Shown one piece after another: positions 30,712-43,435 of a DNA stretch of 64,000 nucleotides (position 1 is the first letter of the stretch; each line of letters starts with the position of its first letter). The translations under genes and the position numbers were made by a program. The stretch lies in assembly GCA_963721405.1 (NCBI GenBank), contig CAVRJA010000014.1, forward strand, positions 909,691 to 973,690, read 5' to 3'. Source of the DNA: an uncultured Acidobacteriota bacterium. Lineage in GTDB: Bacteria > Acidobacteriota > UBA6911. The notes under the pieces were generated by a model. It was not told the origin of the DNA. It saw only the letters and a list, made by a program, of their open reading frames with translations, and ran no database searches.

Positions 30712-30782
30712 TACGGATCCCCCGTTAGTCTGACATGTGCTCCACCCGGCGACACGGGTGAATGACAAAAAGAACGAACCAC

Positions 30783-30885
30783 GAAGACTCAAAGACCTCA
30801 AAGACGGCCGGTGTGGAGAGCCTTAGAGCAAGGCTGCCCCTGCGGAGGAAGCGACAGCCCCCGCCTTTGAGGTCTTCGAGTCTTT
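30783..30885. promoter_or_regulatory. long imperfect inverted repeat in intergenic or leader region
   Basis: GAAGACTCAAAGACCTCAAAG (30783..30803) pairs with CTTTGAGGTCTTCGAGTCTTTGAGG (30865..30885), with about a 60-nt loop. The flanking GAACCACGAA motif is shared with the 19414 hairpin. Confidence 0.5.
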
Positions 30886-30940: not shown

Positions 30941-33061
30941 CTACTCATAAAACTTGTGGCCGCAGTTGTCACAGAACTTGTTTCCCTCCATGGTTTTCAG
31001 ATGGCACTTGGGACAGACGACCACCGAGCCGGCGCCGGTTTGGGACATGCCGGCGGTCTGAATCACGCCTGAGCCCGGGGTGATCACCATGGTTCCGGGC
31101 TGGGCGGAACGAGCGGCAGCCGTGGCCGTGTCGCGCTGGGTGTCCATGCCGCGGTTGTACATCTCCTGCATCATGTGCGCATACTCGCGGCTCATATCCT
31201 TGAGATCGGCGAAGCCCTGGTCCTTTATGGCCAGCATGCGGTCGTAGGCTTTCTGAACCTCCGCCGCGGTGGCGCCCCGGAATTTCTCCTGGAAGGCCTT
31301 AGCGACTTCCGGGCTCTTATCGGCGGCCATGGCAAGAATCTGCTCCTCGGACAGGCCTCGCAGATTTTCGGCGCGCTTCAGGTCGGCCAGCATGGCGGCA
31401 CGGTCCGCGGGGGCCGCCGCGATCAACGCTTCCGCCGACAGGTTCGAGAGCGCCTGGATCCTGGCGAGTTCCTGGGCGTGCCGTTGCGACTCCTCTCTCA
31501 TGGCGATTTCCGACCTGGCCGCCTGCTCGCGCACGGTGCGGTCCGTATCCCAGTCCGCTTCCTCCCTCTTGGTCTGCTTCATCTGCTTCAGGATTTCGAT
31601 GGCTTTCTGGGCTTCGATCGCATCGAGCTCGATCTGAGATAAATGTTCCTTCCTTTCGAGTTCGATCTCCGTTTCCTTTTTCGTCTTTCCGAGCCTGATC
31701 GCCGTTTCCGCTTCGAGCTGCTTCGCGGCCACATCCTGCTGGATCTTCGCCCACTCCGATGCCTGGCGCATCTCCACCTCTTTGCGCTGCGCGGCCAGTT
31801 CATGCTCCAGCTGCGCCATCTCCTCGGCGCGGACGGATCCGGCGACCGTCTGGTTGAGGGAAATCTTGCCCGCCAGCGCGGCACGCGCGAGGTCCGTGTC
31901 CTGCTCGACCTTCAAACGCTGAATCAAATGCGCCCTTGCCAGATCGTGATCCTCCTTCTTTTCGCCGAAATCCTGGGTCAGGACGCGCATTTCCTCGGCG
32001 CGCAGGAGCTTGTCCTTGTCGATGGACTGCAGGAACTTTTCCAGCTCCACCTCGTTGGTCACCTGGTTCATTTCATTGGATGAGACTGCCTTCCGCATGC
32101 GCTCGAACACCCGGGCACGATCCTCGTACACCTCCAGCTGCATGAGCGCCTTGGCCGTCTCCTGGTCCAGCAGCCTGCGATCCAGTCCTGTCTGGGAACC
32201 CTCGCCGGCGAGCTTGGTTTCCAGGTCCTGGGCGTTCAGCCAGTACTCTTCCCTCTTGTCGTTGAGCGCGTCCAGCCGCGGGTGCCGGAAATCGAAAATC
32301 CGGATCTGAATGAACGACAGTCCCTTCCTGTCGAAAGTGGTTGCGAGATGCTGCGCCACTCCCTGCTCCATCTGCTGCTTGACCGCCAGGCTTGTCGACA
32401 GCTCCTGGACCGACCTGCTGCCCACGAACTCCATCAGGCAGTTGCGCAACTCCCCTTCGAGGAAACCATTCAGCTCGTTCAGCGAGTAGTTCTGCCGCCC
32501 CTTCATCATGTTCTCGAAAAACAGGGTGGGATTGTCCATCTGGACGACCAGCCTGCACTCCGCCTCCAGCCTGATGGGATCACGAGTCGTCAGGCCTGCG
32601 AGCGAGAACTGCAGTTCCACGTCGCCCGTATCCACGAGCACGGCCGTCGTGGTCTTGTAATTGAAGATATTCTGGATTCGCTGCAGCACCCCCCCCATGT
32701 CGTATCTGCCGGGGTCGAGGATCCCGGAACAGGCGCCGTTTACGAAAAAGATCGCCCGGGTGCCGGCTTCCACGACGAGGCCCCTCTTGAAGAGCCCCTC
32801 CACATCGTCGACCTCGACCCTTGTGGCGAAGTCTTCAACCCGGCGGGCCCACCGGTTCCCCGTCAGTCTGGGGGCTGCGCTTTCAGAAAGGGGCTTGCCG
32901 CAGTTGCCGCAATACGTCCTGTCTGCAGGGACCGTGGCGCCGCAGCTGCTGCATTTGAGCTCTGATCCGGGCAGGCGCTCGCCACAGTTGCCGCAGTAGC
33001 GCGAGCCCTGCTTGTTTCTGGCATTGCATTTGGGACACTCAACCTGAAATAGGGGAACCAT
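30941..33061 (-). CDS. double-zinc-ribbon + SPFH(band-7)-like + long coiled-coil protein with C-terminal zinc ribbon
   Basis: N-terminus MVPLFQVECPKCNARNKQGSRYCGNCG...CSSCGATVPADRTYCGNCG. SPFH-like segment (AIFFVNGACSGILDPGRYDMGG...TAVLVDTGDVELQF...RLEAECRLVVQMDNP). About 350 aa of heptad-rich coiled coil. C-terminal CPKCHLKTMEGNKFCDNCG. GGAGG RBS. Confidence 0.75.
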   Translation of the reverse strand: MVPLFQVECPKCNARNKQGSRYCGNCGERLPGSELKCSSCGATVPADRTYCGNCGKPLSESAAPRLTGNRWARRVEDFATRVEVDDVEGLFKRGLVVEAGTRAIFFVNGACSGILDPGRYDMGGVLQRIQNIFNYKTTTAVLVDTGDVELQFSLAGLTTRDPIRLEAECRLVVQMDNPTLFFENMMKGRQNYSLNELNGFLEGELRNCLMEFVGSRSVQELSTSLAVKQQMEQGVAQHLATTFDRKGLSFIQIRIFDFRHPRLDALNDKREEYWLNAQDLETKLAGEGSQTGLDRRLLDQETAKALMQLEVYEDRARVFERMRKAVSSNEMNQVTNEVELEKFLQSIDKDKLLRAEEMRVLTQDFGEKKEDHDLARAHLIQRLKVEQDTDLARAALAGKISLNQTVAGSVRAEEMAQLEHELAAQRKEVEMRQASEWAKIQQDVAAKQLEAETAIRLGKTKKETEIELERKEHLSQIELDAIEAQKAIEILKQMKQTKREEADWDTDRTVREQAARSEIAMREESQRHAQELARIQALSNLSAEALIAAAPADRAAMLADLKRAENLRGLSEEQILAMAADKSPEVAKAFQEKFRGATAAEVQKAYDRMLAIKDQGFADLKDMSREYAHMMQEMYNRGMDTQRDTATAAARSAQPGTMVITPGSGVIQTAGMSQTGAGSVVVCPKCHLKTMEGNKFCDNCGHKFYE

Positions 33062-33187: not shown

Positions 33188-34777
33188 TCACGTAGGCACC
33201 TGTTCGCTTCCGGCCGGCCGGGCTATCCGCAACGAGATCCGGCTGGCCGTGCCGCCGGCATATTGGATGGGAATCTCGTGCGGACCCACCTGCAGGCGGA
33301 ACGAATCCTGCAAGGCGATATCCTGCTCGAAACGGCGGTTGTCCGGCGAGCCGCGCATCTCGAAATGGACCGTGGCGGGCGATTCGTGCTGCCACAGGAA
33401 ACCGTGGCGCCGCGTGGTGATCCTGGTCAGGCGGATCTGCCACAGGCTGTCGCCGTCGAAGATCTTCCAGCCCTCCCCGACGCGCAGCGTGTGCGGTCCG
33501 CGGATCCGCGTCAACGGGTCAAACAGAGAGCAGGGAACGTCACCCTCCTTTGAGATCGCCGACAGGAGCTCGTCAGGCCGGACCGATTTGCCGCCATAGG
33601 ATTGCAGGTACGCGCGTATCTGTTCGCGTTCGTGCGCCGAAAATGGGGAATCTGCGGCTTCCACGGCGTTGCGGCGAAAAATCTCGTTCATGCGCTGGGT
33701 GATGTCGACGGGGCCCTGTGTTCCCCCGTTTGCAGGATCCAACGCCTCCAGCAACAGTTCGTGTTTGCGCTTCCACACCCGGAGTTTCTCCTCCAGGACA
33801 TTCAGCTCTGCCTGTACGAGTTCCTGCCGCAGCGCTTTTCCCTTGAGCGTGCGTTCCTGCTCGATGGCGCGCACGGCAGCTTCGTGTTCGGCCTGGTCGC
33901 GTATCTCTTCCAGTTTTCCCGCCAGGACCGCCTGCCGGAGGGCGCCGCGCACCTTGTTGCGCTCCACTTCCCGTCTCGCGGCTTCATTCTCCAGGGCAAG
34001 GTCCCCGTACTCCCGGAAGAGCTGGTCAAGCACGGGGCTGAACAGTCTCAGGCTGGTTACCTGCAACACATCGCATACGGATCCTCTCAAAGCGTCCTGA
34101 AGCCATTGCAGCGCCTGCCCGCTCCATTTGGCCTGTTCGTCCGGATGCTGGTAGGCCTCCTCCGCATTCATGGACGAAACCCACTGCCGGGCGGGAAGGG
34201 ATACTCTTGAGGCGACATTTTCCGCGATCTGTTCCGGCGAGAAGGAGATTTCATTCAGGGTGGAGGCCGTGAGACGCGAGGAATCGATCTTGAAAACCGG
34301 GCGGATTTCCAGCTGCATCGGCTGATGGTCGCGGGCGAAAAGATCTCTCAATTGGAGCACCACAGGAAACTCGGCGTTGCGCCAGACGATGGCGCGCGCG
34401 TTCTCCCCCAGGCCCATGGAGGCGATCATTTTTGCCACATCCCGGCGTCCGTATTGCCCGGGTTCCAGTTCGCGCTGGATAACTCCGGCATCCAGCACCA
34501 CGGCGCGCCATCCCCAGTCGACGGTAAATCCAGGCTGAGACTTGTCCAGTTTGAATGTGCGGATCACATCGCCTTCGGGCAACGAGGGGCGAAACGGTTC
34601 TCCCGGCGCCTCGACCATCCCCGCGGTCCGTTTGATGAGGTGGACGAGTTTTCTCCAAAAGCCGAGTATCAGGCTCATCGCAATCGTAGTTGCGATTGCG
34701 AGCGGGAGATTCTGCTTGAGCTTGAGCCAGAGATCCTGGAGCTGATCCAGCCACCACGAGTCCATAGTGAACTCCAT
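33188..34777 (-). CDS. membrane-anchored SPFH-like / coiled-coil protein
   Basis: N-terminal TM (LPLAIATTIAMSLILGFW). SPFH-like region (GFTVDWGWRAVVLDAGVIQRELEPGQYG...EFPVVLQLRDLF...LEIRPVF). Long Ala/Glu/Arg-rich coiled coil. Globular C-terminal domain. Confidence 0.6.
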   Translation of the reverse strand: MEFTMDSWWLDQLQDLWLKLKQNLPLAIATTIAMSLILGFWRKLVHLIKRTAGMVEAPGEPFRPSLPEGDVIRTFKLDKSQPGFTVDWGWRAVVLDAGVIQRELEPGQYGRRDVAKMIASMGLGENARAIVWRNAEFPVVLQLRDLFARDHQPMQLEIRPVFKIDSSRLTASTLNEISFSPEQIAENVASRVSLPARQWVSSMNAEEAYQHPDEQAKWSGQALQWLQDALRGSVCDVLQVTSLRLFSPVLDQLFREYGDLALENEAARREVERNKVRGALRQAVLAGKLEEIRDQAEHEAAVRAIEQERTLKGKALRQELVQAELNVLEEKLRVWKRKHELLLEALDPANGGTQGPVDITQRMNEIFRRNAVEAADSPFSAHEREQIRAYLQSYGGKSVRPDELLSAISKEGDVPCSLFDPLTRIRGPHTLRVGEGWKIFDGDSLWQIRLTRITTRRHGFLWQHESPATVHFEMRGSPDNRRFEQDIALQDSFRLQVGPHEIPIQYAGGTASRISLRIARPAGSEQVPT

Positions 34778-34808: not shown

Positions 34809-36026
34809 TCAGTTGCTGTCTGCGAACTCCCGGAACCGCAGCACCAGCTTTTTCAGCTTTTCGGTGTCGATCCGGACGCGCCGGAAAGCCTCGTCGAAAT
34901 CCTTTTTCTGCAACGGACGGATTCTGAGCCTGTAGCTTTCGATCGCCTCCCGGCCCGCATCGACGCAGTGCGGAATCTGCCCGTTCAGCTCCTCGACCAT
35001 CACGTTTACAGCCTGGTTCGCCAGCCGCTCCAGATCCCGTCCGCTGAACCACTCCGTGTTGCGCACTACTTCCTGAAGCGGGTAGTCCAGCGCATGCCCC
35101 TCCTTCAGCAACTGGATCTCCAGAATCGCCTTGCGTGCTTCGGCGTCCGGCAGCGGGATATAGACGCGCTTCTGAAAGCGGCTGAGAATCGCGTCATCCA
35201 GATCCCAGGGCGCGTTGGTGGCGGCGATCGTGAGCACGAACCGGTCCTCGCCCTTGTCCGCCAGCCCGTCGAGTTCCGAGAGAATGGTGGAGAGCATCCT
35301 CCGCTCCGCCCCGCTCTCCGAGCCCTCTCCGCGCGCCAGGCACAGCGACTCGACTTCATCCACAAAAATGACCGCGAATCCCTCGTCGGCTTCGCTGCGC
35401 GCGGCGTTGAAGAGTGCCGTGACCAGCTTGGACGACTCGCCGAAGTATTTGGAGAGCAGGTTGCTGGCCTTTACGTTGAAGAAGGTCGCACCCAGGCCGT
35501 TGCTCGTAGCCGCCGCGAGCAGGGTCTTGCCCGTTCCCGGGGGGCCGTAGAAGAGCATTCTGCGCCAGCCCGAGAGCTTCACGTTTTCGGGCTTCTGCGC
35601 AAGCGCCAGGCCGTAAGTGAACTTGATCTCCCGCTTGGTGGCCTCGAGGCCCCCGATCTTATCCCACGTCACCTTGCTGCGATGAATCAGCGACGCGATT
35701 TCGTTCGTGTACTGCTGCTCGTCATCCTCTGGAGCGCGCTCCCGCACCTTGTCGCCCGGCCCCTGTGATGGCGGCGCAGACGGGAGCACTCTTCGCTTGC
35801 CGGCTTTCAACGCTTCTGCAATCTCGAGATACTGGCGGGACTTCTGCCTTCGACGCATCTGATCCTCACGCGTCAGCGCGTAGTCGGCATAGCTTCTCAT
35901 CAGCTTGGCCGCCTTCGTATAGGTTGCGGAGGCTTCGGCGCCCTTGTTCTGCGATTCCAGCGCCCGGGCCTCGGCCAGAGTTTTATCGAGAGACACCTTG
36001 AGGGGACCGCTCAGGTCGACATCCAT
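34809..36026 (-). CDS. MIT-domain AAA+ ATPase, Vps4/katanin-like (meiotic clade)
   Basis: N-terminal three-helix MIT-like region (LDKTLAEARALESQNKGAEASATYTKAAKLMRSYADYALT...RQYLEIAEALKA). Walker A GPPGTGKT. Walker B FVDEVES. Vps4-like ATNAPWDLDDAILSRFQKRVYIPLPD. Confidence 0.85.
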   Translation of the reverse strand: MDVDLSGPLKVSLDKTLAEARALESQNKGAEASATYTKAAKLMRSYADYALTREDQMRRRQKSRQYLEIAEALKAGKRRVLPSAPPSQGPGDKVRERAPEDDEQQYTNEIASLIHRSKVTWDKIGGLEATKREIKFTYGLALAQKPENVKLSGWRRMLFYGPPGTGKTLLAAATSNGLGATFFNVKASNLLSKYFGESSKLVTALFNAARSEADEGFAVIFVDEVESLCLARGEGSESGAERRMLSTILSELDGLADKGEDRFVLTIAATNAPWDLDDAILSRFQKRVYIPLPDAEARKAILEIQLLKEGHALDYPLQEVVRNTEWFSGRDLERLANQAVNVMVEELNGQIPHCVDAGREAIESYRLRIRPLQKKDFDEAFRRVRIDTEKLKKLVLRFREFADSN

Positions 36027-36050: not shown

Positions 36051-36680
36051 TTAGTCGTCATCGCTGATCTTTTCGGCTTTGATGGCTTTGTCGATCTCCT
36101 CGTGGAATCGGGACAGGTCCTCATCGTCGGTTCCGGTCTCCTCCGCCTTCGCCATGTCTCCGATGGCTTTGTCGAAGTCGGCAAAGCCTACGTCCTCTTT
36201 TACTTTTCCCTGAGTGACTCCCAGTTCCTCCTCACCCAGAATCTCCTCCAGCATGTCGTTGAAGGTGTCGTCGTCGACCTCGGCGGAGTCGATGGCCTTC
36301 TGGATGGAGCTGTCTTTGAAGCGCACGATCAGGTTTTGAAGGCTCTTGCGATCCTTCTTTTTCTCCAGCATCTCCATTTTTCGCAGGAAGGAAGTGAGTG
36401 CCGTCTTGGCCAGGGAGAGGCGCCGCAGGTCGCTGTTGACGTATCCGTTGTCGATTTCCACCTGCCTCATCTCCCGGAAAATATCCCGCAACACCTCCTG
36501 TTTGCCCCCCTTCTTGGCGACGACCGCCTCCTTTACCTTCTGCTGCTTGCGCTGCTCCATGACATCGAGGTCGCGCCGCTTCTTTTTCTGATCGCGCTCG
36601 ATCTCCTTGAGCTGAACACGGATATCCGCCGCATTGGGCGACTTGCTGAACAATTTGTCTAGCAGATTCATGACTCTCAC
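36051..36680 (-). CDS. Snf7/ESCRT-III-like coiled-coil protein with acidic C-terminal (MIM-like) tail
   Basis: 209 aa. Basic N-terminal helices (KEIERDQKKKRRDLDVMEQRKQQKVKEAVVAKKGGK). Central region similar to Snf7 alpha4-5 (IQKAIDSAEVDDDTFNDMLEEILGEEELG). Acidic end DDEDLSRFHEEIDKAIKAEKISDDD. 24 nt downstream of the MIT-AAA ATPase gene. Confidence 0.7.
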   Translation of the reverse strand: MRVMNLLDKLFSKSPNAADIRVQLKEIERDQKKKRRDLDVMEQRKQQKVKEAVVAKKGGKQEVLRDIFREMRQVEIDNGYVNSDLRRLSLAKTALTSFLRKMEMLEKKKDRKSLQNLIVRFKDSSIQKAIDSAEVDDDTFNDMLEEILGEEELGVTQGKVKEDVGFADFDKAIGDMAKAEETGTDDEDLSRFHEEIDKAIKAEKISDDD

Positions 36681-36707: not shown

Positions 36708-37322
36708 TTAATTCTCCAGGCTCTTCCGGTTTTTCAACGGCTCCTCCCCGGCCTTTATGCCGGGCTCTTCTTTCCTGCCCACGATGCGCTTCTTGATCTC
36801 TTCCAGTCTGCGGCGTTCGGCGGACTCGTCCACGGCGGTGCTCATGTTCGATCCACTCTCTGCCGCCAGGCTTACCCTCTTGTACTCTTCGACGTGGCCT
36901 TCCACCTCATCTACCATGCGGTCGATCTGGTCTTCCCCGACGCCGCGGGATCGCATGGCCTCCATTTCCTGGATCTTGGCGATGAGGTTCAGGTGCAGGT
37001 TTACGTTTTCGTTGTAGATCAACACCTGTTTCCCGAGGTTGGCGCGCTGCTTTTCCAGCCGCTCGATCCGCCGCAGGATGATGGTCTCTTCCGTCGGCGT
37101 GAGTTCGCCCCGCCGGATCGAGTTTTCTTCCGCGGTGACGGCCTTTTCGAGGCCGATCAGTTGCTCCTCGTTTTCGCGCAGCTCGATCTCGTTCTGCGCG
37201 CGAAGCGTTTCCAATCCCTTGATGAGATCTCTCGGGCTCGCCGCATCCTGGTAGAGCCGGCGCGTTTCGTCCGGCAGATCCGTTCGCTGGAACAGGCTTC
37301 TCAGTTTTTCCATCACAGACAT
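36708..37322 (-). CDS. Snf7/ESCRT-III-like coiled-coil protein (paralog 2)
   Basis: 204 aa, all-helical, heptad-rich. MSVMEKLRSLFQ N-terminus resembles CHMP N-termini. Region ...IDRMVDEVEGHVEEYKRV... resembles the ESCRT-III alpha5 pattern. Acidic or basic mixed C-terminus. Confidence 0.55.
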   Translation of the reverse strand: MSVMEKLRSLFQRTDLPDETRRLYQDAASPRDLIKGLETLRAQNEIELRENEEQLIGLEKAVTAEENSIRRGELTPTEETIILRRIERLEKQRANLGKQVLIYNENVNLHLNLIAKIQEMEAMRSRGVGEDQIDRMVDEVEGHVEEYKRVSLAAESGSNMSTAVDESAERRRLEEIKKRIVGRKEEPGIKAGEEPLKNRKSLEN

Positions 37323-37330
37323 GATTCCTC

Positions 37331-40048
37331 CTACCGGATAGATCTTTGGATGTAAGTCTTCCCTTTGTGATCGAGAATCTGAAAGCGTCCGCCGGCGACT
37401 TGAACGGCGGCCGCTGCCGACTGGCGATCCAGATTGTGCTCGGCCAGGAAGGAAGCCATCGTCACCGATTCCCCCGGCAATGCCAGCCTGGGGTGATCCG
37501 ACAGCGCCTTTTCGGCGCGGACCCTCTTCTCCCCGCAGGTCTCCGGATCGAACAGGTCACGGAGGGGGCTTTCGTGGCCAAACACGATCCAGGATGTACC
37601 TTCGCCTTTTTCGACCAGGTAGAACAGCGCGTTGCCGCGCGCCTCGGCGTGCCTCTTCCAGTCTTCCGGCCACCCCGTGGGGGAGAAGATCCCGACGCAA
37701 TAGAAGTCCTGGTCCGTGAAAGCCAGGCCGCCGGGGCCCATGATTTCCTGCAGGATGCTATCCGCACCCTGGAGGCCTGCCCCGCCTGGTGCGAGAGCCT
37801 CGAGGTCCCGCCTGACGGCAGCCAGGATGAAGCGGTTCTTCTTTAACAGTCCGGCAGCCAGGGCAAACTGGGTCACGCCGCCGAATGATCTGCGGAAGGA
37901 CTGGCCCTGCGATTTCGGGTCTATTTCGAATTCTTCCCCGCTCCATGGGTGTATCACGCGTCCCGCGTCTCGCACCTTGAGATCAAACCGATTGATGAAG
38001 GTGTCGCCCCAGCAGGGAACCGGCGCCATCGGAGGGGGCTGGGACCGGAGATCGTGCGTCGTCATGCGGGGGAATCCCTCCGCCGTGAGGCCCGGCCTCG
38101 TGGAAGCAGCCGCCTGCGACGGAAGAAAGACCGGGTCCCTCGCTGCCGCGGCGCCCGAAGCCCTGGGCGCCGGCGCCGGGGACATTTCGGGCGTGGAGGC
38201 GTTCTCTTTGTGTCTCTCGCATGAGCGGTGGCCGAGTTGCCAGCAGATCCGGCATATCGGGGCGCCGCATTCGCGGCATTCCCAGACCGGCGAAAACACG
38301 CCGACTTTTGTCAGGTAGCGCTTTCCGCATCGATAACAGACATCGGGCTCGAAGCCCACGGGCGCCGCGGGCGCGGCCCGGGCCGGAACAACTTCCGGCT
38401 CGTCCACCGCAGGCACGGATCTCACCTCCGCGGGCGCCGGAGCGGCGGCTCGCGACGAGTGGATGTGCGCCGGGGCGCGGCGCTGCGCTTCCCGGCCGGC
38501 TTCCGTCATGTTCACCAGTCCATGTCCCACCTGCATGTCACTGGCATACTCCTGGCCGTCGGGGCCTTTCAGGGGACGGCATGCGAAATAAAAAAGGTCG
38601 ACCAGGTCGGCGGGAGTCGGTTCCCAGCCGAGTGAGCGCAGGATTGATTTGAGCAGCACCAGGCAGCCAGCGATCGCCGGCGTTGCCATGCTGGTGCCCG
38701 AGAGGCGCACGTGGCTCTTGTCCACCACTTCGGATGCGTCATAGCCGGCTGTGGAGGATCTGGCGGCGACCACATCCACGCCGGGTCCCACACAGTTGGG
38801 CTTGCCGAATAACGGTGATTCGGGATTTGCGCTCCCCTGAGCGGAAAACGCTGCCAGGAGTCTATTCTTGTCTATGGCGCCCACCGTCACGGCGGTAGGG
38901 CAGTCCGCGGGGACGCAGATCGACTCCGGGTAGGACGGCATCGGGTTGCCGGCGGCCACGCACACCACGGTCCCCTTGCGGAAGGCTTCGGCGCAGGCCT
39001 TTGACCAGATCGATTGTCCGTTCGGCGTCGTATCCATCTCTCCCAGCGAGAGGCTCAGGATGTCGGCCTTCTTCTCTACAACGGCCCACGCCATGCCCCG
39101 GAGAATCGATTCGAGATTGCCGGCCCTACCGGGGGATAAAACCTTGCCGGCGATCAGGCGGCAGCGCGGCGCGATTCCCGAATACCTGCCCCCGAGGGTC
39201 GTGTCGTCGCCGGCTGCGATGGAGGCAACGTGGGTCCCATGCCCGTCGACGTCTTCCTCCCCGCTGAGGGTGAAATCTTGATAGTCCTCGTGGGATATCC
39301 TGGAGAGTGCCGGGTGGCTGCGGTCGACGCCGGTGTCGAGCACGGCGAGTGTGACGTCCTGGCCGAATTGCGCCATGATGTCGGGAGTGACTCCGAGGAT
39401 CTCCCGGCTTTCCACCATCATGGTGGTGACCGCCATTGGAGCGGGCGCCGTTACGGGGGTCAGCGGATCGGCGACGATCCCCGCCTCGGGCAGGCCGGCA
39501 ATCTCGCGCACGAAACTCATCTCCGGCGGGCAGGTGAGCTTTACGATGCCGAACTGCTCCAGGAGCTCTGCCGGCAGAAGGGCGAACCCCTGGGAGACCA
39601 GGCGGCTCTTGAGCTTCTCCATCGCGCCCGGATCCTGCGACATGCACAGGACCGCGGGCCACTTTTCAGCGGGCACCAGGTCGGAATAGCAGCGCATCGA
39701 TCCGCCGGGATCGTTGCGGACATTTTCCGGGGCGGCGATGTCACGGAGGTCGGAATCCAGGTGCTCCTGCAACCTCGAGGCCAGGGCCATTTCACCGACG
39801 CCCTGTCCGCGAAGCCCGGAGACCACGGTCGAATAACGTTCGTAAGCGTCGCCCCGGATTACCCTGCGGTTGATGACACGGTCGACGCGCAGCCGTTCCT
39901 TCTCGTCGTATTCACGCTCCTCGATGCGTTCGTCGATCACCTCGAAACGCAGGGCGGCCTCGGCTTGCTGAGCAATGACCTGGCGCCGCCTCGCTTCCAG
40001 CGACTGCACCAGGAACGAATGAATCTTCGCATCGACTGCATTGTTCAC
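37331..40048 (-). CDS. subtilisin-like serine protease (peptidase S8) with embedded zinc ribbon and large C-terminal domain
   Basis: Catalytic triad blocks VAVLDTGVD (Asp), DGHGTHVASIAAG (His), SGTSMATPAIAG (Ser). Insert CYRCGKRYLTKVGVFSPVWECRECGAPICRICWQLGHRSCERH. Stop overlaps the upstream gene (40045..40048). Confidence 0.85.
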   Translation of the reverse strand: MNNAVDAKIHSFLVQSLEARRRQVIAQQAEAALRFEVIDERIEEREYDEKERLRVDRVINRRVIRGDAYERYSTVVSGLRGQGVGEMALASRLQEHLDSDLRDIAAPENVRNDPGGSMRCYSDLVPAEKWPAVLCMSQDPGAMEKLKSRLVSQGFALLPAELLEQFGIVKLTCPPEMSFVREIAGLPEAGIVADPLTPVTAPAPMAVTTMMVESREILGVTPDIMAQFGQDVTLAVLDTGVDRSHPALSRISHEDYQDFTLSGEEDVDGHGTHVASIAAGDDTTLGGRYSGIAPRCRLIAGKVLSPGRAGNLESILRGMAWAVVEKKADILSLSLGEMDTTPNGQSIWSKACAEAFRKGTVVCVAAGNPMPSYPESICVPADCPTAVTVGAIDKNRLLAAFSAQGSANPESPLFGKPNCVGPGVDVVAARSSTAGYDASEVVDKSHVRLSGTSMATPAIAGCLVLLKSILRSLGWEPTPADLVDLFYFACRPLKGPDGQEYASDMQVGHGLVNMTEAGREAQRRAPAHIHSSRAAAPAPAEVRSVPAVDEPEVVPARAAPAAPVGFEPDVCYRCGKRYLTKVGVFSPVWECRECGAPICRICWQLGHRSCERHKENASTPEMSPAPAPRASGAAAARDPVFLPSQAAASTRPGLTAEGFPRMTTHDLRSQPPPMAPVPCWGDTFINRFDLKVRDAGRVIHPWSGEEFEIDPKSQGQSFRRSFGGVTQFALAAGLLKKNRFILAAVRRDLEALAPGGAGLQGADSILQEIMGPGGLAFTDQDFYCVGIFSPTGWPEDWKRHAEARGNALFYLVEKGEGTSWIVFGHESPLRDLFDPETCGEKRVRAEKALSDHPRLALPGESVTMASFLAEHNLDRQSAAAAVQVAGGRFQILDHKGKTYIQRSIR

Positions 40049-40755
40049 GGCATTTTGCTCCCGTGCCTCAGAGGCACAACCTTCCCTTCCTCCTGATAAC
40101 TCTCCACCAGATCCAGAGCGACGATCCGGCGCAGCATTTCAAAGGAAACCAGGGCGACCACGCCGGACACCATGGGCAGCATGCGGACGCTCTCATAGGA
40201 CTGCCCGCACTTCGTGCACTTCAAAGCCCGGTCCTGCTGCGGCGAAGGCAAGGCCGACCCGCAGGAACGGCACGGAATCCCGGAAGCTTGCGGCCGGCCC
40301 TCGACCGTTGCCAGGGGGAATCCGTCACGGGCCGCGATTTCCGCCAGCCTGGCGAAAAACGCCTCGCGATTGGAAATCGAAAGGTAGAAGAGCAGGGCAG
40401 GGTGGCGAAGGAGCGTTGCAAGATCCTTCCGAAGCGTTTCCATGGGCAGCTCACCGCGGATGGCGCCGTGGGGAACGGCTGCCCGGCTCAATCCCCGGAC
40501 CATCGTCGTCACAGGGTCCGCAGGCCTGGCGCTGCCCGCTTCGGCCGATGGCGCCCGGAAGGACTCCGCGGCCTCGGAGTAGGATATCATCCGCTTCCCG
40601 CCGGGCGCATGGATGGCGGGCAGGGCCATGAGCCTCCTGAATTCGGCGCTGAAGCGGGCGGCCGAGCCCAGGTGGACGCGCGGATTGCCGAATTCGCGCA
40701 GGAACCCTCCCATGCGTGTGGCCACGGCGTCGAGGTGTCGGTCCAGTGTTTCCAT
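40045..40755 (-). CDS. hypothetical protein with C-terminal zinc ribbon (CRSCG...CTKCG)
   Basis: 236 aa. Translationally coupled between the second MIT-AAA ATPase and the S8 protease. No family recognised. Confidence 0.5.
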   Translation of the reverse strand: METLDRHLDAVATRMGGFLREFGNPRVHLGSAARFSAEFRRLMALPAIHAPGGKRMISYSEAAESFRAPSAEAGSARPADPVTTMVRGLSRAAVPHGAIRGELPMETLRKDLATLLRHPALLFYLSISNREAFFARLAEIAARDGFPLATVEGRPQASGIPCRSCGSALPSPQQDRALKCTKCGQSYESVRMLPMVSGVVALVSFEMLRRIVALDLVESYQEEGKVVPLRHGSKMP

Positions 40756-40761
40756 CAGGCC

Positions 40762-41907
40762 TCAGCTCCCTTCGGCGAATTTCCGGTAGCGCTCCAGCAT
40801 GGACTCGCTGACCGACGGCGGCACCTCCCGAATGGCAGTTTCCAGATCCTCGAGCGTCAGAATCGTCTCGGCGCCGGATCCGATCTGCCGGCGGAACGGA
40901 AGATCGGTCGCCTTGGTGCAGACGCCCGCGATGTCGGCGCCGCTGTACCCGGCCAGTTTCTCCGCCAGGACACGGTAATCGACGGACGGTTCCATGGGGA
41001 TGCCGTCGAGATTGAACTGAAGTATCTGCTCCCGGGCGGCGGCATCCGGAAGGCCGACATAGAACTTCTCTCCGAAGCGCCCGGTGCGCATCGCAGCCTC
41101 ATCCATGTCCCACGGCCGGTTAGTGGCGCCCATGAGCAGAATGCAGTTCGTCTTGGGATCGAGGCCGTCCACCTGCGAGAGGAACTCGGGGACGACGCGG
41201 TTCATCACCGTCGACTGCCCGCCCCGCTTGCCGACCAGGGCTTCCGTTTCGTCAAGGAATATCACTGATATGGGGTAACGGCGGGCGACCTCAAACAGGC
41301 GCGCGAGGTTCTGTTCGGCCACACCTACCCACTGCGACATGATGTTGGAGCTCTTCACGTTCAGGAACTGGGCATCCAACTCGGTGGCGATGGCTTTGGC
41401 GATCATCGTCTTCCCCGTGCCCGGCGGGCCGTAGAGCAGAATCCCTCCCCCGGCTTTCTTCTTGAAGCGGGTTGCGGCTTCGGGATGACGGAACGGGTAG
41501 ATGACCCTGAGGTTGATGGCTTCCTTGACCTCGTTCAGCCCGGCGATCTGGTCGAAGCGAACATCGGGTTTTTCGGAAACGATCCATTTGTTTTCCGGGG
41601 TGAGGTCGGCATCCGGGTCTTTGCCTGAGCCGGCCCGTTCGGGAGAGGCCGCCGGCGCCGTCCCGGGAGGGGATTTCCTGCCTTTGAGCGACATGGCGAG
41701 ATCGCACAGATGGCGGGCCTTCTGCTGCCGGATCTTTTTCAGCTCATTTTCCGATTCCAGGGCGGCCTTGAGCAGGTATCTGGCGGCCATCAACAAGTGA
41801 TACCGGGCCTGCGGGTGATCTCCGATCTTAAGGTAATCAAGGCCCTGATCCCTGTTCTTTCCGTATTGATCCAACAGGAACTGCATAGAGATTCCTCGTG
41901 CCGTCAA
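40762..41907 (-). CDS. MIT-domain AAA+ ATPase, Vps4-like (paralog 2)
   Basis: MIT-like N-terminus (LDYLKIGDHPQARYHLLMAARYLLKAALESENELKKIRQQKARHLCDLAMSLK). Walker A GPPGTGKT. Walker B FLDETEA. ATNRPWDMDEAAMRTGRFGEKFYVGLPD. Confidence 0.85.
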   Translation of the reverse strand: MTARGISMQFLLDQYGKNRDQGLDYLKIGDHPQARYHLLMAARYLLKAALESENELKKIRQQKARHLCDLAMSLKGRKSPPGTAPAASPERAGSGKDPDADLTPENKWIVSEKPDVRFDQIAGLNEVKEAINLRVIYPFRHPEAATRFKKKAGGGILLYGPPGTGKTMIAKAIATELDAQFLNVKSSNIMSQWVGVAEQNLARLFEVARRYPISVIFLDETEALVGKRGGQSTVMNRVVPEFLSQVDGLDPKTNCILLMGATNRPWDMDEAAMRTGRFGEKFYVGLPDAAAREQILQFNLDGIPMEPSVDYRVLAEKLAGYSGADIAGVCTKATDLPFRRQIGSGAETILTLEDLETAIREVPPSVSESMLERYRKFAEGS

Positions 41908-41933: not shown

Positions 41934-42536
41934 TTACTTGCCGCTCTTTTCAATCTCCTTCTGGATCGCCGAAAGATCCTTGTCGATCTCTTCGTCGATG
42001 CCTGATCGTTCCTCGTGAGCGACCTCTTCCTCAAGCATCTTGTCGATGTCGGCGTCGCTCACCAGCTGGCCCTCGGAACTGCCTTCGTAGTCGAACATCG
42101 ATTCGGATGTCATCTCCAGGAATGTGTCTACCCGCTCTTCGAGGTTCTCCGCCTGAGACATCGCCTTCTCGAAGTTGACCTGCGTCTTGGCCATGTCCGT
42201 CGCGCCAAAGACCTCGGAAATTGACTTCGAGAGCGAGTTCATCGCGTTGGCGAACTCAAAGTGGCCCTCCGCCTGTTCTTTGATCTGCACGGCGGACTCG
42301 AGGGCAAGCATCTGCCGCTCGAGCCGGACCTTGATCGTCGCCGTCTTCTTGATTGCCTTCTTGAGGAACTCGTATTGATTGTTCCAGCCGAGCTTTTTGG
42401 CCCGTTTTGCCTTCTCGATGTAGTCGGATTCGTGCTTGGTATTGGCAGCGATCTGGCGTTTGATCTGAGTGACGGCCTTCCGGATCTGAATGTTCCGTTC
42501 GATGCGCCGTTCCTCCTTGGACTTGAAGAGACTCAT
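41934..42536 (-). CDS. Snf7/ESCRT-III-like coiled-coil protein (paralog 3, CHMP1/Did2-like layout)
   Basis: MSLFKSKEERRIERNIQIRKAV... has a basic N-terminus. MAKTQVNFEKAMSQAENLEERVDTF resembles CHMP1 alpha4-5. Acidic C-terminus with DIDKMLEEE...IDEEIDKDLSAIQKEIEK (MIM1-like). Confidence 0.7.
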   Translation of the reverse strand: MSLFKSKEERRIERNIQIRKAVTQIKRQIAANTKHESDYIEKAKRAKKLGWNNQYEFLKKAIKKTATIKVRLERQMLALESAVQIKEQAEGHFEFANAMNSLSKSISEVFGATDMAKTQVNFEKAMSQAENLEERVDTFLEMTSESMFDYEGSSEGQLVSDADIDKMLEEEVAHEERSGIDEEIDKDLSAIQKEIEKSGK

Positions 42537-42556: not shown

Positions 42557-43435
42557 CTAATGACTCATCCTTTCCACGATACTTGCAATGCGATAGTTGT
42601 AGTAACCGCTTCCCGCCAGGGCGAGGATCAGGATGCCGGCGGTCCAGATCGTCGGGATCCAGAAGCCGGTCAACAGAAGAGCCAACAGCATGTCCACGAT
42701 AGTGTAGCCGAGAAGGGTTGCCAGGTTCAGGATGTTCGACTCCTCGGAGATCAGCCGGCGGATCAGCGGGATCGTCAGCAGAGGCAGCAGCAGCGCAAAA
42801 ACGATCCAGACGAAAATCCTGCGTCCTTTGGAGCTGTCCGCGATGCGTGCGCGCCAGTAGGAACTCAGGATCAGGCTGCCGCCCATTTCTTCCGCAAACG
42901 TCTGGGCGAAGATCGCCTGGCCGGTCGCGCGCTCCGCGACGCGCAGTTCCAGCTTGAGCGTGCCTGTTCTCTCCTTCACATCGTATTCAGGAATCTCGCC
43001 AAACAGGACCAGGTCGACGCCGATCCGGCGTGCGGCAGCGACTGCGTCTTCAAGCCGGGTGACGGAGATGCCCTGGCCGCCGAACTCGCGCAACAGCTTT
43101 CCCAGAAACGGCTCCTCCAGGACCCGGAACTCGCCGGAAGCGGCGATCTTTTCCCGCAGCAGCTTGGTGACATTGCCCTGCCGGTCACCGGCGAGCTCGA
43201 GGACTGCGAGGCTGGGGACCCCTTCCTTTTTCGGCAAGTCTCCTGCGACCTTTGCACACAGCCTCTCGGCGAGATTCCGTTGCATGAATCCCCGGCCATC
43301 TTCTGCCGGGGCAATCAGGTGATATCCCTGGTAGAACATGGAAAGGCCCAACCCGAAGTAGAGAATGGGCTTGACCAATGACCTGCCCAGGAATGAATAC
43401 AACGGGTCCATGATTCGCAGCTGCACCATGGTCAC
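42557..43435 (-). CDS. polytopic membrane protein, first gene of the minus-strand array
   Basis: N-terminal TM pair, a soluble middle domain and three or four C-terminal TM helices. An AT-richer 250-bp region upstream (43436..43690) probably carries a promoter. Confidence 0.55.
   Translation of the reverse strand: MTMVQLRIMDPLYSFLGRSLVKPILYFGLGLSMFYQGYHLIAPAEDGRGFMQRNLAERLCAKVAGDLPKKEGVPSLAVLELAGDRQGNVTKLLREKIAASGEFRVLEEPFLGKLLREFGGQGISVTRLEDAVAAARRIGVDLVLFGEIPEYDVKERTGTLKLELRVAERATGQAIFAQTFAEEMGGSLILSSYWRARIADSSKGRRIFVWIVFALLLPLLTIPLIRRLISEESNILNLATLLGYTIVDMLLALLLTGFWIPTIWTAGILILALAGSGYYNYRIASIVERMSH

What the first reader, a model, noticed from the sequence alone, without database searches (positions are those of the whole stretch)
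37331..40048. S8 subtilisin-like protease with an embedded Cys4 zinc ribbon, translationally coupled inside the ESCRT-like operon
The catalytic Asp/His/Ser blocks are intact: VAVLDTGVD, DGHGTHVASIAAG and SGTSMATPAIAG. The 905-aa protein has no obvious signal peptide. A rubredoxin-like insert, CYRCGKRYL...WECRECGAPICRICWQLGHRSCERH, sits after the protease domain, followed by a roughly 350-aa C-terminal domain of unknown function. Its start overlaps the preceding gene's stop.

A cytoplasmic S8 protease tied to Snf7-like filaments could act as a processing or disassembly factor.
Basis: partly seen in the sequence, partly recalled or inferred. Interest (0 to 1): 0.55.

Follow-up and report, generated by a model that had tools for sequence, protein, structure and literature searches.

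The report
Subtilase effector on bacterial ESCRT-like adaptor
A cytoplasmic subtilisin-type protease from an uncultured Acidobacterium is joined, through a two-zinc finger, to an adaptor domain that always sits next to coiled-coil and Vps4-like ATPase genes of a bacterial ESCRT-like operon; this makes it more likely a removable output enzyme of that membrane system than an ordinary secreted protease.

Summary
The ORF is real: 37331-40048, minus strand, 905 aa, with a 4-nt start/stop overlap. It has an intact S8 catalytic set (D238/H270/N368/S453) and shows no signal peptide or TM segment by a hydropathy heuristic.

Three details need correcting:
- The Asp block reads LAVLDTGVD.
- The zinc module has eight invariant ligands (7 Cys + 1 His), so it is FYVE/B-box-like, not Cys4.
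- The tail is a 60-aa disordered linker plus a ~225-aa fold (new alpha/beta domain + winged helix, "CTD").

The family is rare: about 28 clusters, and all named genomes are Acidobacteriota MAGs. Gene order AAA-D-S8-F-G-AAA holds down to 35% identity.

The CTD is the constant part. CTD-F-G order holds in 16/16 further loci. The CTD also occurs alone, on a Ser/Thr kinase and (distantly) on MerR. In 22 clusters it is fused to F.

The head is removable. D plus NTD-S8-ZnF is absent from sister loci (L098, L101, L103). Without the CTD, it sits behind a DRT8-like defence reverse transcriptase (L014).

Upstream gene B is Snf7-family through its orthologues. F and G are only fold-compatible with ESCRT-III.

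Verdict: the tie to the ESCRT-like operon is supported. A role as a portable output/effector protease is more likely than as an obligatory filament-processing factor.

The parts
37331..40048 (-). Whole ORF: NTD-S8-zinc finger-linker-CTD protein, 905 aa, stop codon included
39365..40048 (-). N-terminal region, residues 1-228. It has a conserved charged helix (about residues 36-66) and then a conserved alpha/beta-looking stretch. It matches no Pfam family. In P0028 it is replaced by a D-like domain.
38624..39364 (-). Peptidase S8 catalytic domain (Pfam match, residues 229-475). Catalytic codons: D238 at 39335-39337, H270 at 39239-39241, N368 at 38945-38947, S453 at 38690-38692.
   Evidence: closest solved relative Tk-SP 3afg, E=5.6e-37
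38210..38338 (-). Zinc finger with eight ligands, residues 571-613: CxxC-x16-CxxC-x4-CxxC-x7-CxxH
   Evidence: (pLDDT 80-91)
38021..38203 (-). Pro/Ala-rich linker predicted to be disordered, residues 616-676
   Evidence: pLDDT below 50
37544..38011 (-). CTD alpha/beta domain, residues ~680-835. Signature motifs are GIFSPxGWP and DPE. No solved structural relative was found.
37334..37537 (-). CTD C-terminal winged helix, residues ~838-905
40045..40755 (-). D: 236-aa partner with a zinc ribbon, translationally coupled to S8. It lies next to the S8 gene in all 8 loci whose upstream flank was read and is fused to it in P0028.
40762..41907 (-). C: Vps4/CdvC-like AAA ATPase, 381 aa, with a Vps4_C domain
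41934..42536 (-). B: Snf7-family (ESCRT-III) protein, 200 aa
42557..43435 (-). A: membrane protein at the head of the operon, with a weak CsgG-like region
36708..37322 (-). F: 204-aa coiled-coil protein, always directly after the CTD and fused to a CTD-like domain in 22 clusters
36051..36680 (-). G: coiled-coil protein of 206-209 aa with ESCRT-III-like helical architecture. The annotated start is the ATG at 36671.
34809..36026 (-). H: second CdvC/Vps4-like AAA ATPase, 405 aa
30941..34777 (-). I and J: two SPFH/Band_7 proteins, J with double zinc ribbons. Both are conserved with the operon in L013 and L101.

Best explanation
The protein is a latent cytoplasmic subtilase that acts as the output (effector) arm of an Acidobacterial ESCRT-III/Vps4-like membrane system.

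Proposed mechanism:
- The C-terminal module (CTD: alpha/beta domain + winged helix) is the adaptor. It docks on, or reads the state of, the coiled-coil proteins F and G, which are handled by the Vps4-like ATPase H.
- The N-terminal cassette (NTD-S8-two-zinc finger) and its translationally coupled partner D form a portable enzyme unit grafted onto that adaptor.
- When the F/G assembly forms or changes state at the membrane, the tethered protease is concentrated or released from inhibition. It then makes limited cuts in D, in components of the system, or in cellular targets.

Shown: domain anatomy, intact catalytic residues, conserved gene order, CTD-F fusions, head swapping and head loss, and the D-S8 link.

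Inferred: the physical CTD-F/G contact, latency, D's role as inhibitor or substrate, and the identity of the substrates.
For: 1. Active, non-secreted S8. The triad and oxyanion Asn are conserved in 21 members. No signal peptide or TM segment by heuristic. Eight conserved Cys/His zinc ligands and a winged helix are typical of intracellular proteins.
2. The CTD is the constant element.
   - CTD-F-G order holds in 16/16 metagenome loci with upstream DNA and in L001-L013.
   - It also holds in a distant MerR-CTD-like locus: F-like E=3.5e-24, G-like E=1.6e-15.
   - 22 of 118 CTD-like cluster representatives are fused to an F-like region: hhalign probability 95.7%, E=8.6e-9, 139 columns.
3. The head is exchangeable or removable.
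   - A Ser/Thr kinase-CTD occupies the same slot in L006.
   - MerR heads occur in 7 representatives.
   - A bare 242-aa CTD follows the AAA gene directly in L098, L101 and L103, which are otherwise the same B-C-CTD-F-G-H-I-J operon.
   - These bare-CTD loci nest among S8-bearing loci in a rough NJ tree.
4. When the CTD is missing, F, G and H are missing too (L014).
5. D goes with S8, not with the CTD. D is present in 8/8 S8 loci with an upstream flank and absent from the kinase and bare-CTD loci. It is fused to S8 in P0028 (E=2e-11 and 9e-13).
6. The D + S8-ZnF cassette also sits, with overlapping stops and starts, behind a DRT8-like defence reverse transcriptase (PADLOC Drt8, E=6.5e-87). A second contig has the same three-gene layout. 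DRT8 is known to carry swappable effectors (PMC10952713).
Against: - No interaction or activity was tested; everything rests on gene order and fusions.
- All sequences come from MAGs or metagenomes.
- S8 is the majority head in this clade (16 of 20 loci that could be typed), so it may be more central than 'accessory' suggests.
- A tethered protease could equally well cleave F, G or B themselves.
- The structure models rest on shallow alignments of 18-22 sequences.
- The NJ tree has no support values.
Confidence: 0.5

Rival explanations
1. Dedicated processing or disassembly factor. The CTD brings the protease to the Snf7-like and coiled-coil polymers. There it trims autoinhibitory C-terminal tails to trigger assembly, or degrades subunits to reset the polymer. 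The comparison is proteasomal removal of CdvB in Sulfolobus (my own knowledge of the literature).
For: - Tight operon with B (Snf7 family), F, G and two Vps4-like ATPases.
- CTD-F fusions place the protease next to F.
- B, F and G have acidic C-terminal tails with a loosely shared EEI[DK]K-type helix.
- S8 is the commonest head in the clade.
Against: - The same operon works without any protease in L098, L101 and L103 and with a kinase in L006.
- A MerR DNA-binding head on the related adaptor cannot process filaments.
- D + S8-ZnF also occurs with no F, G or H at all (L014).
Confidence: 0.22
2. Abortive-infection or toxin-type immune effector. The whole locus is an anti-phage or conflict system. 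The S8 head is a toxic protease held in check by D and/or the AAA ATPases (IetAS-like logic), and it is released on infection to kill or arrest the cell. This overlaps with the best explanation but commits to immunity and to broad, lethal proteolysis.
For: - D + S8-ZnF sits behind a Drt8-like reverse transcriptase.
- The ATPases hit PADLOC IetA (E about 1e-32) and the S8 domain hits IetS weakly (8e-9).
- Operon gene K matches the N-terminal 317 positions of NCBIfam anti-phage ProA (E=6e-75).
- Kinase M hits PD-T4-6 (1e-77).
- Related loci carry caspase-like C14, FGE-sulfatase and papain-like C1 genes.
- The cassette shows patchy gain and loss.
Against: - IteS and IteA scores are far below NCBIfam cut-offs: 19.7 vs 900 and 114 vs 510.
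- The AAA and kinase hits reflect generic domain similarity.
- No relatives in IMG/VR, PLSDB plasmids or phage genomes, and no integrase or other mobile-element gene was noticed among the genes read near the operon (not searched for systematically).
- The system is confined to one phylum.
- Neighbours also include FtsW/RodA-PBP, FhaA-FHA and SPFH genes, which point to envelope physiology.
Confidence: 0.2
3. Ordinary degradative or secreted subtilase that lies in this operon by chance.
For: S8 proteases are abundant in soil bacteria. The catalytic domain is closest to generic subtilisins, Tk-SP and mycosin-type models.
Against: - Gene order is kept from 100% down to 35% identity.
- The start overlaps the upstream stop by 4 nt.
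- The protein is fused to the operon-specific CTD.
- No signal peptide by heuristic in 21/21 members.
- Search scores drop from E=1e-117 to 1e-39 outside the family.
Confidence: 0.03

Closest known systems
PalB/Rim13 and calpain-7: calpain-like proteases recruited to ESCRT-III (PMC2640967, PMC10586806, PMC9477494)
   Same: A cytoplasmic protease is brought to ESCRT-III-type polymers by a dedicated non-catalytic module. It makes regulatory cuts there, so the polymer serves as a signalling platform.
   Different: Those enzymes are eukaryotic cysteine proteases (family C2) that dock through MIT domains on ESCRT-III tails. This one is a bacterial serine protease (S8) that would dock through an unrelated alpha/beta + winged-helix module. 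Its contact with the polymer is inferred, not shown.
IetAS / IteAS: AAA ATPase plus S8 protease, a plasmid toxin-antitoxin and anti-phage pair (PADLOC and NCBIfam models; background from my own knowledge)
   Same: An S8 protease without a secretion signal is encoded beside classic-clade AAA ATPases. The models give weak hits.
   Different: Scores are far below the family cut-offs. IetS has no zinc finger or CTD, and IetAS has no Snf7-like or coiled-coil genes.
DRT8 defence reverse transcriptases with exchangeable effectors (PMC10952713)
   Same: The same D + S8-ZnF cassette follows a Drt8-like reverse transcriptase in L014. This shows the cassette behaves like a swappable effector.
   Different: The window has no reverse transcriptase. 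Here the cassette is fused to the ESCRT-like adaptor instead.
Archaeal ESCRT loci: Vps4 + ESCRT-III + winged-helix proteins + SPFH/zinc-ribbon proteins (PMC10936438)
   Same: The parts list matches: a Snf7-family gene, Vps4/CdvC-like ATPases, a winged-helix-containing adaptor, and SPFH proteins with zinc ribbons.
   Different: This locus is bacterial (Acidobacteriota), has two ATPases and a new alpha/beta domain, and carries a protease head. That paper mentions no protease (its text search for 'protease' and 'peptidase' gave zero occurrences) and states that ESCRT homologues are not identifiable in bacteria.
Psp system (PspA-PspF)
   Same: An ESCRT-III-superfamily protein controls an output regulator by binding it. 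The MerR-, kinase- and protease-CTD series suggests the same logic, with different outputs.
   Different: There is no homology between the CTD and PspF. B is Snf7-type, not PspA-type.
Bacillus intracellular subtilisin proteases (ISP)
   Same: A cytoplasmic S8 enzyme with an N-terminal extension instead of a signal peptide. PDB 'intracellular serine protease' chains are hit at E about 1e-21 to 1e-18.
   Different: ISPs are ~320-aa single-domain enzymes without a zinc finger, CTD or ESCRT-like neighbours.

Membership tests
Peptidase family S8 (subtilases) | Asp-His-Ser triad in that order within the DTG / HGT / GTS blocks | tested here: met
   D238, H270 and S453 lie in LAVLDTGVD, DGHGTHVA and SGTSMATP. 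They are conserved in 21 members, except P0006, which lacks the His block.
Peptidase family S8 (subtilases) | Oxyanion-hole Asn | tested here: met
   N368 (AAGN) is invariant.
Peptidase family S8 (subtilases) | Pfam PF00082 above the gathering score | tested here: met
   142.9 bits against 21.8.
Peptidase family S8 (subtilases) | I9-type N-terminal propeptide (common but not obligatory) | tested here: inconclusive
   No Pfam hit in residues 1-228, even at E<=10. The region was not modelled.
Type VII secretion mycosin (TIGR03921) | Score above the equivalog cut-off | tested here: not met
   130.6 bits against 278.75. The hydropathy heuristic found no signal peptide or TM anchor, which mycosins have.
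IetS/IteS anti-phage S8 peptidase with IetA/IteA ATPase | NCBIfam equivalog cut-offs for both partners | tested here: not met
   IteS 19.7 vs 900. IteA 114.2 and 104.7 vs 510. The PADLOC hits are weak or generic.
   There are eight conserved ligands: seven invariant Cys plus the nearly invariant H613.
FYVE / B-box / RING-type two-zinc fingers | Pfam match at gathering score | tested here: inconclusive
   Only sub-threshold hits in 5/5 members: FYVE 15.8-18.6 bits vs 27.8, B-box 11.9-17.7 bits vs 24.1.
FYVE / B-box / RING-type two-zinc fingers | Cross-brace ligand topology | not testable with these tools
FYVE / B-box / RING-type two-zinc fingers | FYVE basic motif R(R/K)HHCR that binds PI3P | tested here: not met
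   The motif is absent when the sequence is read.
ESCRT-III / Snf7 (neighbour B) | Pfam PF03357 at gathering score | tested here: met
   B itself scores 11.3 bits. Full-length orthologues at 47-57% identity pass the 27.3-bit cut-off: P0202 32.9, P0241 34.7, P0244 27.8. No PspA_IM30 hit.
ESCRT-III / Snf7 (neighbours F and G) | Detectable homology to Snf7 or PspA | tested here: not met
   Pfam, PDB profile searches and hhalign against the B family all gave nothing significant.
ESCRT-III / Snf7 (neighbour G) | ESCRT-III fold: alpha-0, long alpha1-alpha2/3 hairpin, alpha4, alpha5 and tail helices | tested here: inconclusive
Vps4 / CdvC ATPase (C and H) | Single classic-clade AAA domain | tested here: met
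   Pfam AAA E about 1e-35 for both. The best NCBIfam model is CdvC for both.
Vps4 / CdvC ATPase (C and H) | NCBIfam CdvC equivalog cut-off | tested here: not met
   214.4 and 178.1 bits against 650.
Vps4 / CdvC ATPase (C and H) | Vps4_C oligomerisation domain | tested here: inconclusive
   C scores 22.1 bits against 21.3, a marginal pass. H has no hit.
Vps4 / CdvC ATPase (C and H) | N-terminal MIT domain | tested here: inconclusive
   Sub-threshold MIT hits spanning the whole profile in 3/5 H and 1/4 C N-termini (E 0.0047-0.52; cut-off 30 bits). No PDB hit.
ESCRT-II winged-helix proteins | Specific structural similarity of the CTD to Vps22/25/36 winged helices | tested here: inconclusive
ESCRT-II winged-helix proteins | Tandem winged helices | tested here: not met
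   The model has one winged helix preceded by a different alpha/beta domain.
DRT8 defence system | Drt8-type reverse transcriptase in the locus | tested here: not met
   None in the window operon. It is present only in L014.

The most novel reading that the evidence does not exclude
Some Acidobacteria carry a genuine ESCRT-III/Vps4-type machine: a Snf7-family protein, two CdvC/Vps4-like ATPases, SPFH proteins and two ESCRT-III-like coiled coils. The assembly state of this machine is read by a previously undescribed adaptor domain (CTD). The adaptor carries interchangeable outputs: subtilase, Ser/Thr kinase, MerR DNA-binding domain, or none. In this window the output is a portable immune-type protease cassette (D + S8 + two-zinc finger) that is also used by DRT8 retro-defence systems. 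If so, this is a bacterial ESCRT-based membrane-surveillance pathway with a proteolytic output, analogous to the fungal Pal/Rim pathway but built from unrelated parts.
Probability: 0.3. Interest if true: 0.85.

Novelty: new variant of a known kind. Interest (0 to 1): 0.62.

Why it matters
Recent reviews state that Vps4-like ATPases and ESCRT components other than PspA/Vipp1 are absent from bacteria (PMC7619361, PMC10936438). Only sporadic transferred Vps4-like genes without snf7 have been noted (PMC11237479).

This locus places a Snf7-family gene, two Vps4/CdvC-like ATPases and a winged-helix adaptor in one conserved bacterial operon, and attaches an enzyme to the adaptor.

The head series (protease, kinase, MerR, none) gives a testable handle on an open question: what signal does an ESCRT-III-type polymer pass on in a prokaryote?

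The shared D + S8 cassette links that question to anti-phage effector biology.

The CTD, F and G families have no Pfam model and no solved relative, so they are new targets for structure and function work.

Tried and rejected
- Genome-contig scan with the single protein found no relatives. Alignments A6 and A4 were too variable to seed a scan. A1 worked but mostly returned generic S8 genes.
- PDB profile or sequence searches with F, G and B gave only chance-level hits.
- hhalign among the B, F and G profiles, including broadened ones, found no relation.
- A Pfam scan of 22 G-family members gave no Snf7 hit.
- hhalign of D against the S8 N-terminal region gave E=0.74, so the idea that they are paralogues was dropped.
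- The H N-terminus alone against PDB gave no hit.
- The promoter/terminator scan gave counts equal to the shuffled expectation, so it is uninformative.
- P0248 first looked like a stand-alone CTD. L097 shows it is a miscalled fragment of an S8-ZnF-CTD gene.
- A twin-arginine signal was considered because of ARRRQVI at residues 19-25. It was rejected because the residues after it include Gln/Glu rather than a hydrophobic stretch and the motif is not conserved.
- Literature searches for a described bacterial Snf7/Vps4 + subtilase system, and for 'ProA' anti-phage, found nothing relevant.
- A possible MIT-interacting motif in the S8 N-terminal helix was considered. It does not fit the MIM1 spacing and could not be tested.
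Full report
**1. The observation**

The minus-strand ORF 37331..40048 encodes 905 aa from a GTG start. An identical protein is on record from a 1.96-Mb contig (P0001).

- Pfam places Peptidase_S8 at residues 229-475 (E=1.7e-41). The closest solved relative is the Thermococcus subtilisin-like protease Tk-SP (3afg, E=5.6e-37).
- In an alignment of 21 family members, D238, N368 and S453 are invariant and H270 nearly so.
- The start GTG overlaps the TGA of the upstream ORF by 4 nt.
- From the ORF coordinates, the other gaps in the operon are 6-31 nt (27-36 nt between F and G, depending on G's start).
- A hydropathy and uncharged-run scan finds nothing like a signal peptide or TM helix in any of the 21 members. 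This is a heuristic, not SignalP.

Three details in the finding are wrong.

1. The Asp block reads LAVLDTGVD, not VAVLDTGVD.
2. The zinc module has eight conserved ligands, CxxC-x16-CxxC-x4-CxxC-x7-CxxH. It gives repeated sub-threshold hits to FYVE, B-box and ANCHR-like B-box models in 5/5 members. It is therefore a two-zinc finger, not a Cys4 ribbon.
3. The tail is 292 aa, not about 350.

**2. Anatomy**

An AlphaFold2 model of residues 563-905 was built on 18 family sequences (mean pLDDT 77.5). It shows four parts:

- the zinc finger (pLDDT 80-91);
- a disordered Pro/Ala-rich linker (residues 616-676);
- a confident alpha/beta domain (~680-835);
- a C-terminal winged helix (~838-905).

**3. 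Family and distribution**

A search of 5.8 billion proteins finds about 28 full-length relatives at 35-68% identity. Scores then drop from E=1e-117 to 1e-39 for generic subtilases. Among GTDB species representatives only six loci carry the family. All six are Acidobacteriota MAGs (Terriglobia, Vicinamibacterales, unclassified). No relatives of the finger-CTD region occur in PLSDB plasmids or phage genomes. Neighbours G and B have no relatives in IMG/VR.

**4. Neighbourhood**

The operon, read 5' to 3' on the minus strand, is:

| Gene | Product |
|---|---|
| A | membrane protein |
| B | 200-aa coiled coil (Snf7 family) |
| C | AAA ATPase |
| D | 236 aa with a zinc ribbon |
| S8 | this protein |
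| F, G | ~200-aa coiled coils |
| H | AAA ATPase |
| I, J | SPFH proteins |
| K | ProA-like protein |
| L, M | two Ser/Thr kinases |

- **B.** On its own B hits Pfam Snf7 only weakly (E=0.27). Its full-length orthologues at 47-57% identity pass the Snf7 gathering score. B is therefore a Snf7-family protein.
- **C and H.** Both score best against the CdvC model, though below its cut-off. C carries a marginal Vps4_C domain. The N-termini give recurrent sub-threshold MIT hits.

Gene order C-D-S8-F-G-H is kept in every locus whose flanks are available, down to 35% S8 identity. The whole A-K set is kept in a Vicinamibacterales MAG at 40% identity (L013).

**5. The CTD is the constant part; the protease head is not**

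A profile of the CTD was searched against 1.84 billion cluster representatives and found 127 proteins.

Evidence that the CTD is a mobile adaptor tied to F and G:

- One hit is a Ser/Thr kinase fused to the same CTD (P0259). In its genome it occupies exactly the S8 slot: A - kinase-CTD - F - G - H (L006).
- Distant CTD-like domains carry MerR heads in 7 representatives. In L007 such a protein is followed by F-like and G-like genes (E=3.5e-24 and 1.6e-15).
- Twenty-two representatives are CTD-like domains fused to a C-terminal region homologous to F (hhalign probability 95.7%, E=8.6e-9 over 139 columns).
- A metagenome scan seeded with G found the order CTD-F-G in 16/16 loci that have upstream DNA.

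Evidence that the protease head is removable:

- Three of those loci (L098, L101, L103) have a bare ~240-aa CTD gene directly after ATPase C, with no D and no S8.
- L101 is otherwise the same operon: B-C-CTD-F-G-H-I-J.
- In a rough neighbour-joining tree of CTDs these bare forms, and the kinase form, nest among S8-bearing ones (no support values).
- Conversely, an Acidobacteriota MAG (L014) has D plus an S8 protein that stops right after the zinc finger. F, G and H are absent there.

**6. D and the portable cassette**

D accompanies S8 in all 8 S8 loci with an upstream flank. It is absent from the kinase and bare-CTD loci. In P0028 a D-like domain is fused to the protease in place of the usual N-terminal region (BLASTP E=2e-11 and 9e-13).

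In L014 the gene that overlaps D's start encodes a protein matching PADLOC Drt8 over nearly the whole model (E=6.5e-87). A second contig shows the same layout, 679 aa / 235 aa / 626-aa S8, with 4-nt overlaps. DRT8 systems are reported to carry exchangeable effectors (PMC10952713). D + NTD-S8-ZnF therefore behaves as a portable two-gene effector cassette. In the window's family that cassette has been fused to the ESCRT-like adaptor.

**7. Mechanism**

The most economical reading has three parts.

- The CTD docks on, or senses, the F/G assembly that ATPase H handles.
- Whatever is fused to the CTD is the system's output: a protease here, a kinase or a MerR domain elsewhere, or nothing.
- The protease would be held latent by its N-terminal region and/or by D. 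It would act once the assembly forms or changes at the membrane.

Shown: anatomy, catalytic integrity, synteny, fusions, and head swapping and loss. Inferred: the physical contact, latency, D's role and the substrates.

It is weakened because the machine exists without any protease. An immune, abortive-infection reading is favoured by several hits:

- the Drt8 link;
- the ProA-like gene K (E=6e-75 to the first 317 positions of the NCBIfam anti-phage ProA model);
- weak IetA/IetS similarities;
- caspase-like, papain-like and FGE-sulfatase genes in related loci.

These scores are below family cut-offs or reflect generic domains. The neighbours also include FtsW/RodA-PBP, FhaA-FHA and SPFH genes, which point to envelope physiology.

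**8. Comparison with what is known**

- **Functional parallels.** The nearest are PalB/Rim13 and calpain-7, cysteine proteases recruited to ESCRT-III through MIT domains (PMC2640967, PMC10586806). The catalytic class and the docking module differ here.
- **Gene-content parallel.** Archaeal ESCRT loci hold Vps4, ESCRT-III, winged-helix and SPFH/zinc-ribbon proteins (PMC10936438).
- **Context.** Current reviews state that Vps4-like ATPases and ESCRT homologues are absent from bacteria (PMC7619361, PMC10936438). Only transferred Vps4-like genes without snf7 have been noted (PMC11237479).
- **Prior description.** I found no description of an S8 protease in such a context.

The protease domain itself is an ordinary S8 member. 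The architecture (S8 + two-zinc finger + CTD), the D partner and the context are new, so I rate this a new variant of a known kind.

**9. Limits**

- All sequences come from uncultured organisms.
- No interaction, activity or localisation was tested.
- The structure models rest on 18-22 sequences.
- The N-terminal region, D and F were not modelled.
- The signal-peptide check is heuristic.
- The tree is unsupported.

Noticed in passing
window 29347-30801 (-): Operon gene K (484 aa, N-terminal zinc ribbon) matches positions 1-317 of the 1903-position NCBIfam model for anti-phage protein ProA (E=6e-75). It has no Pfam or PADLOC hit. By eye it carries a transglutaminase-like Cys/His motif (GTCLDLA...GHAF). 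It is conserved in L013, and remnants are present in L014.
   Followed up: partly
window 30941-33061 and 33188-34777 (-): Two SPFH/Band_7 proteins follow ATPase H. The 706-aa one has double zinc ribbons at the N-terminus, a long coiled coil and a C-terminal zinc ribbon. Both are conserved in L013 and L101. SPFH proteins with zinc ribbons are also described in archaeal ESCRT loci (PMC10936438).
   Followed up: partly
window 24836-27400 and 27487-29274 (-): Two Ser/Thr kinases, each with an N-terminal zinc ribbon and TPRs, end the gene string. One also has a C-terminal FGE-sulfatase domain and hits PADLOC PD-T4-6 at 1e-77, probably through generic kinase similarity.
   Followed up: partly
window 42557-43435 (-): The first operon gene encodes a membrane protein with a weak CsgG-like region and C-terminal TM helices. 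Relatives head the kinase-CTD locus L006 and lie near the CTD-F fusion in L008.
   Followed up: partly
window B residues 182-188, F residues 174-180, G residues 191-197 (P0366 numbering): B, F and G share a loosely conserved C-terminal amphipathic helix of the type EEI[DK]Kx[ILV]. A strict regular expression finds it in 10/20, 3/5 and 6/22 family members. It could be a motif that binds the MIT-like N-termini of the two ATPases.
   Followed up: partly
L014 6100-10854: Three translationally coupled genes: a Drt8-like reverse transcriptase (PADLOC E=6.5e-87), D, and an S8-ZnF protein that lacks the CTD. Decayed K- and M-like fragments lie on the other strand and a beta-lactamase-like gene lies downstream. 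The contig carrying P0017 repeats the three-gene layout.
   Followed up: partly
L002, L003, L005, L006 downstream of H; L090: Related loci continue with DUF4384, caspase-like Peptidase_C14, an FtsW/RodA-transpeptidase fusion, FhaA-FHA and Ser/Thr kinases. A more distant Snf7 + AAA locus (L090) carries a papain-like Peptidase_C1 instead of S8. Proteases of different catalytic classes recur in these systems.
   Followed up: no
L089 3520-12844: A rearranged ESCRT-like locus without S8: several ~200-aa genes, then H-like AAA, Snf7 (B), a 144-aa gene, a Vps4_C-bearing AAA (C) and a 221-aa gene. A weak stand-alone CTD-like gene is also present (E=5.6e-7).
   Followed up: no
window 36671-36680 (-): The mechanical ORF for G starts at GTG 36680, but the recorded protein (P0366, 206 aa) starts at ATG 36671 with MNLLDKLF. 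This N-terminus resembles the alpha-0 of ESCRT-III proteins.
   Followed up: no
P0006 (family member), alignment A1 columns 307-319: One family cluster (4 member sequences) lacks 13 residues that include the catalytic His block. It is either a pseudo-protease or an assembly or gene-call error.
   Followed up: no
window 39851-39943 (-), S8 residues 36-66: The N-terminal helix has conserved acidic residues at i+4 spacing (E36, E40, E44, D48), followed by conserved basic residues (R52, R54, R57, R61, R65). The purpose is unknown. A docking or auto-inhibitory helix is possible.
   Followed up: no
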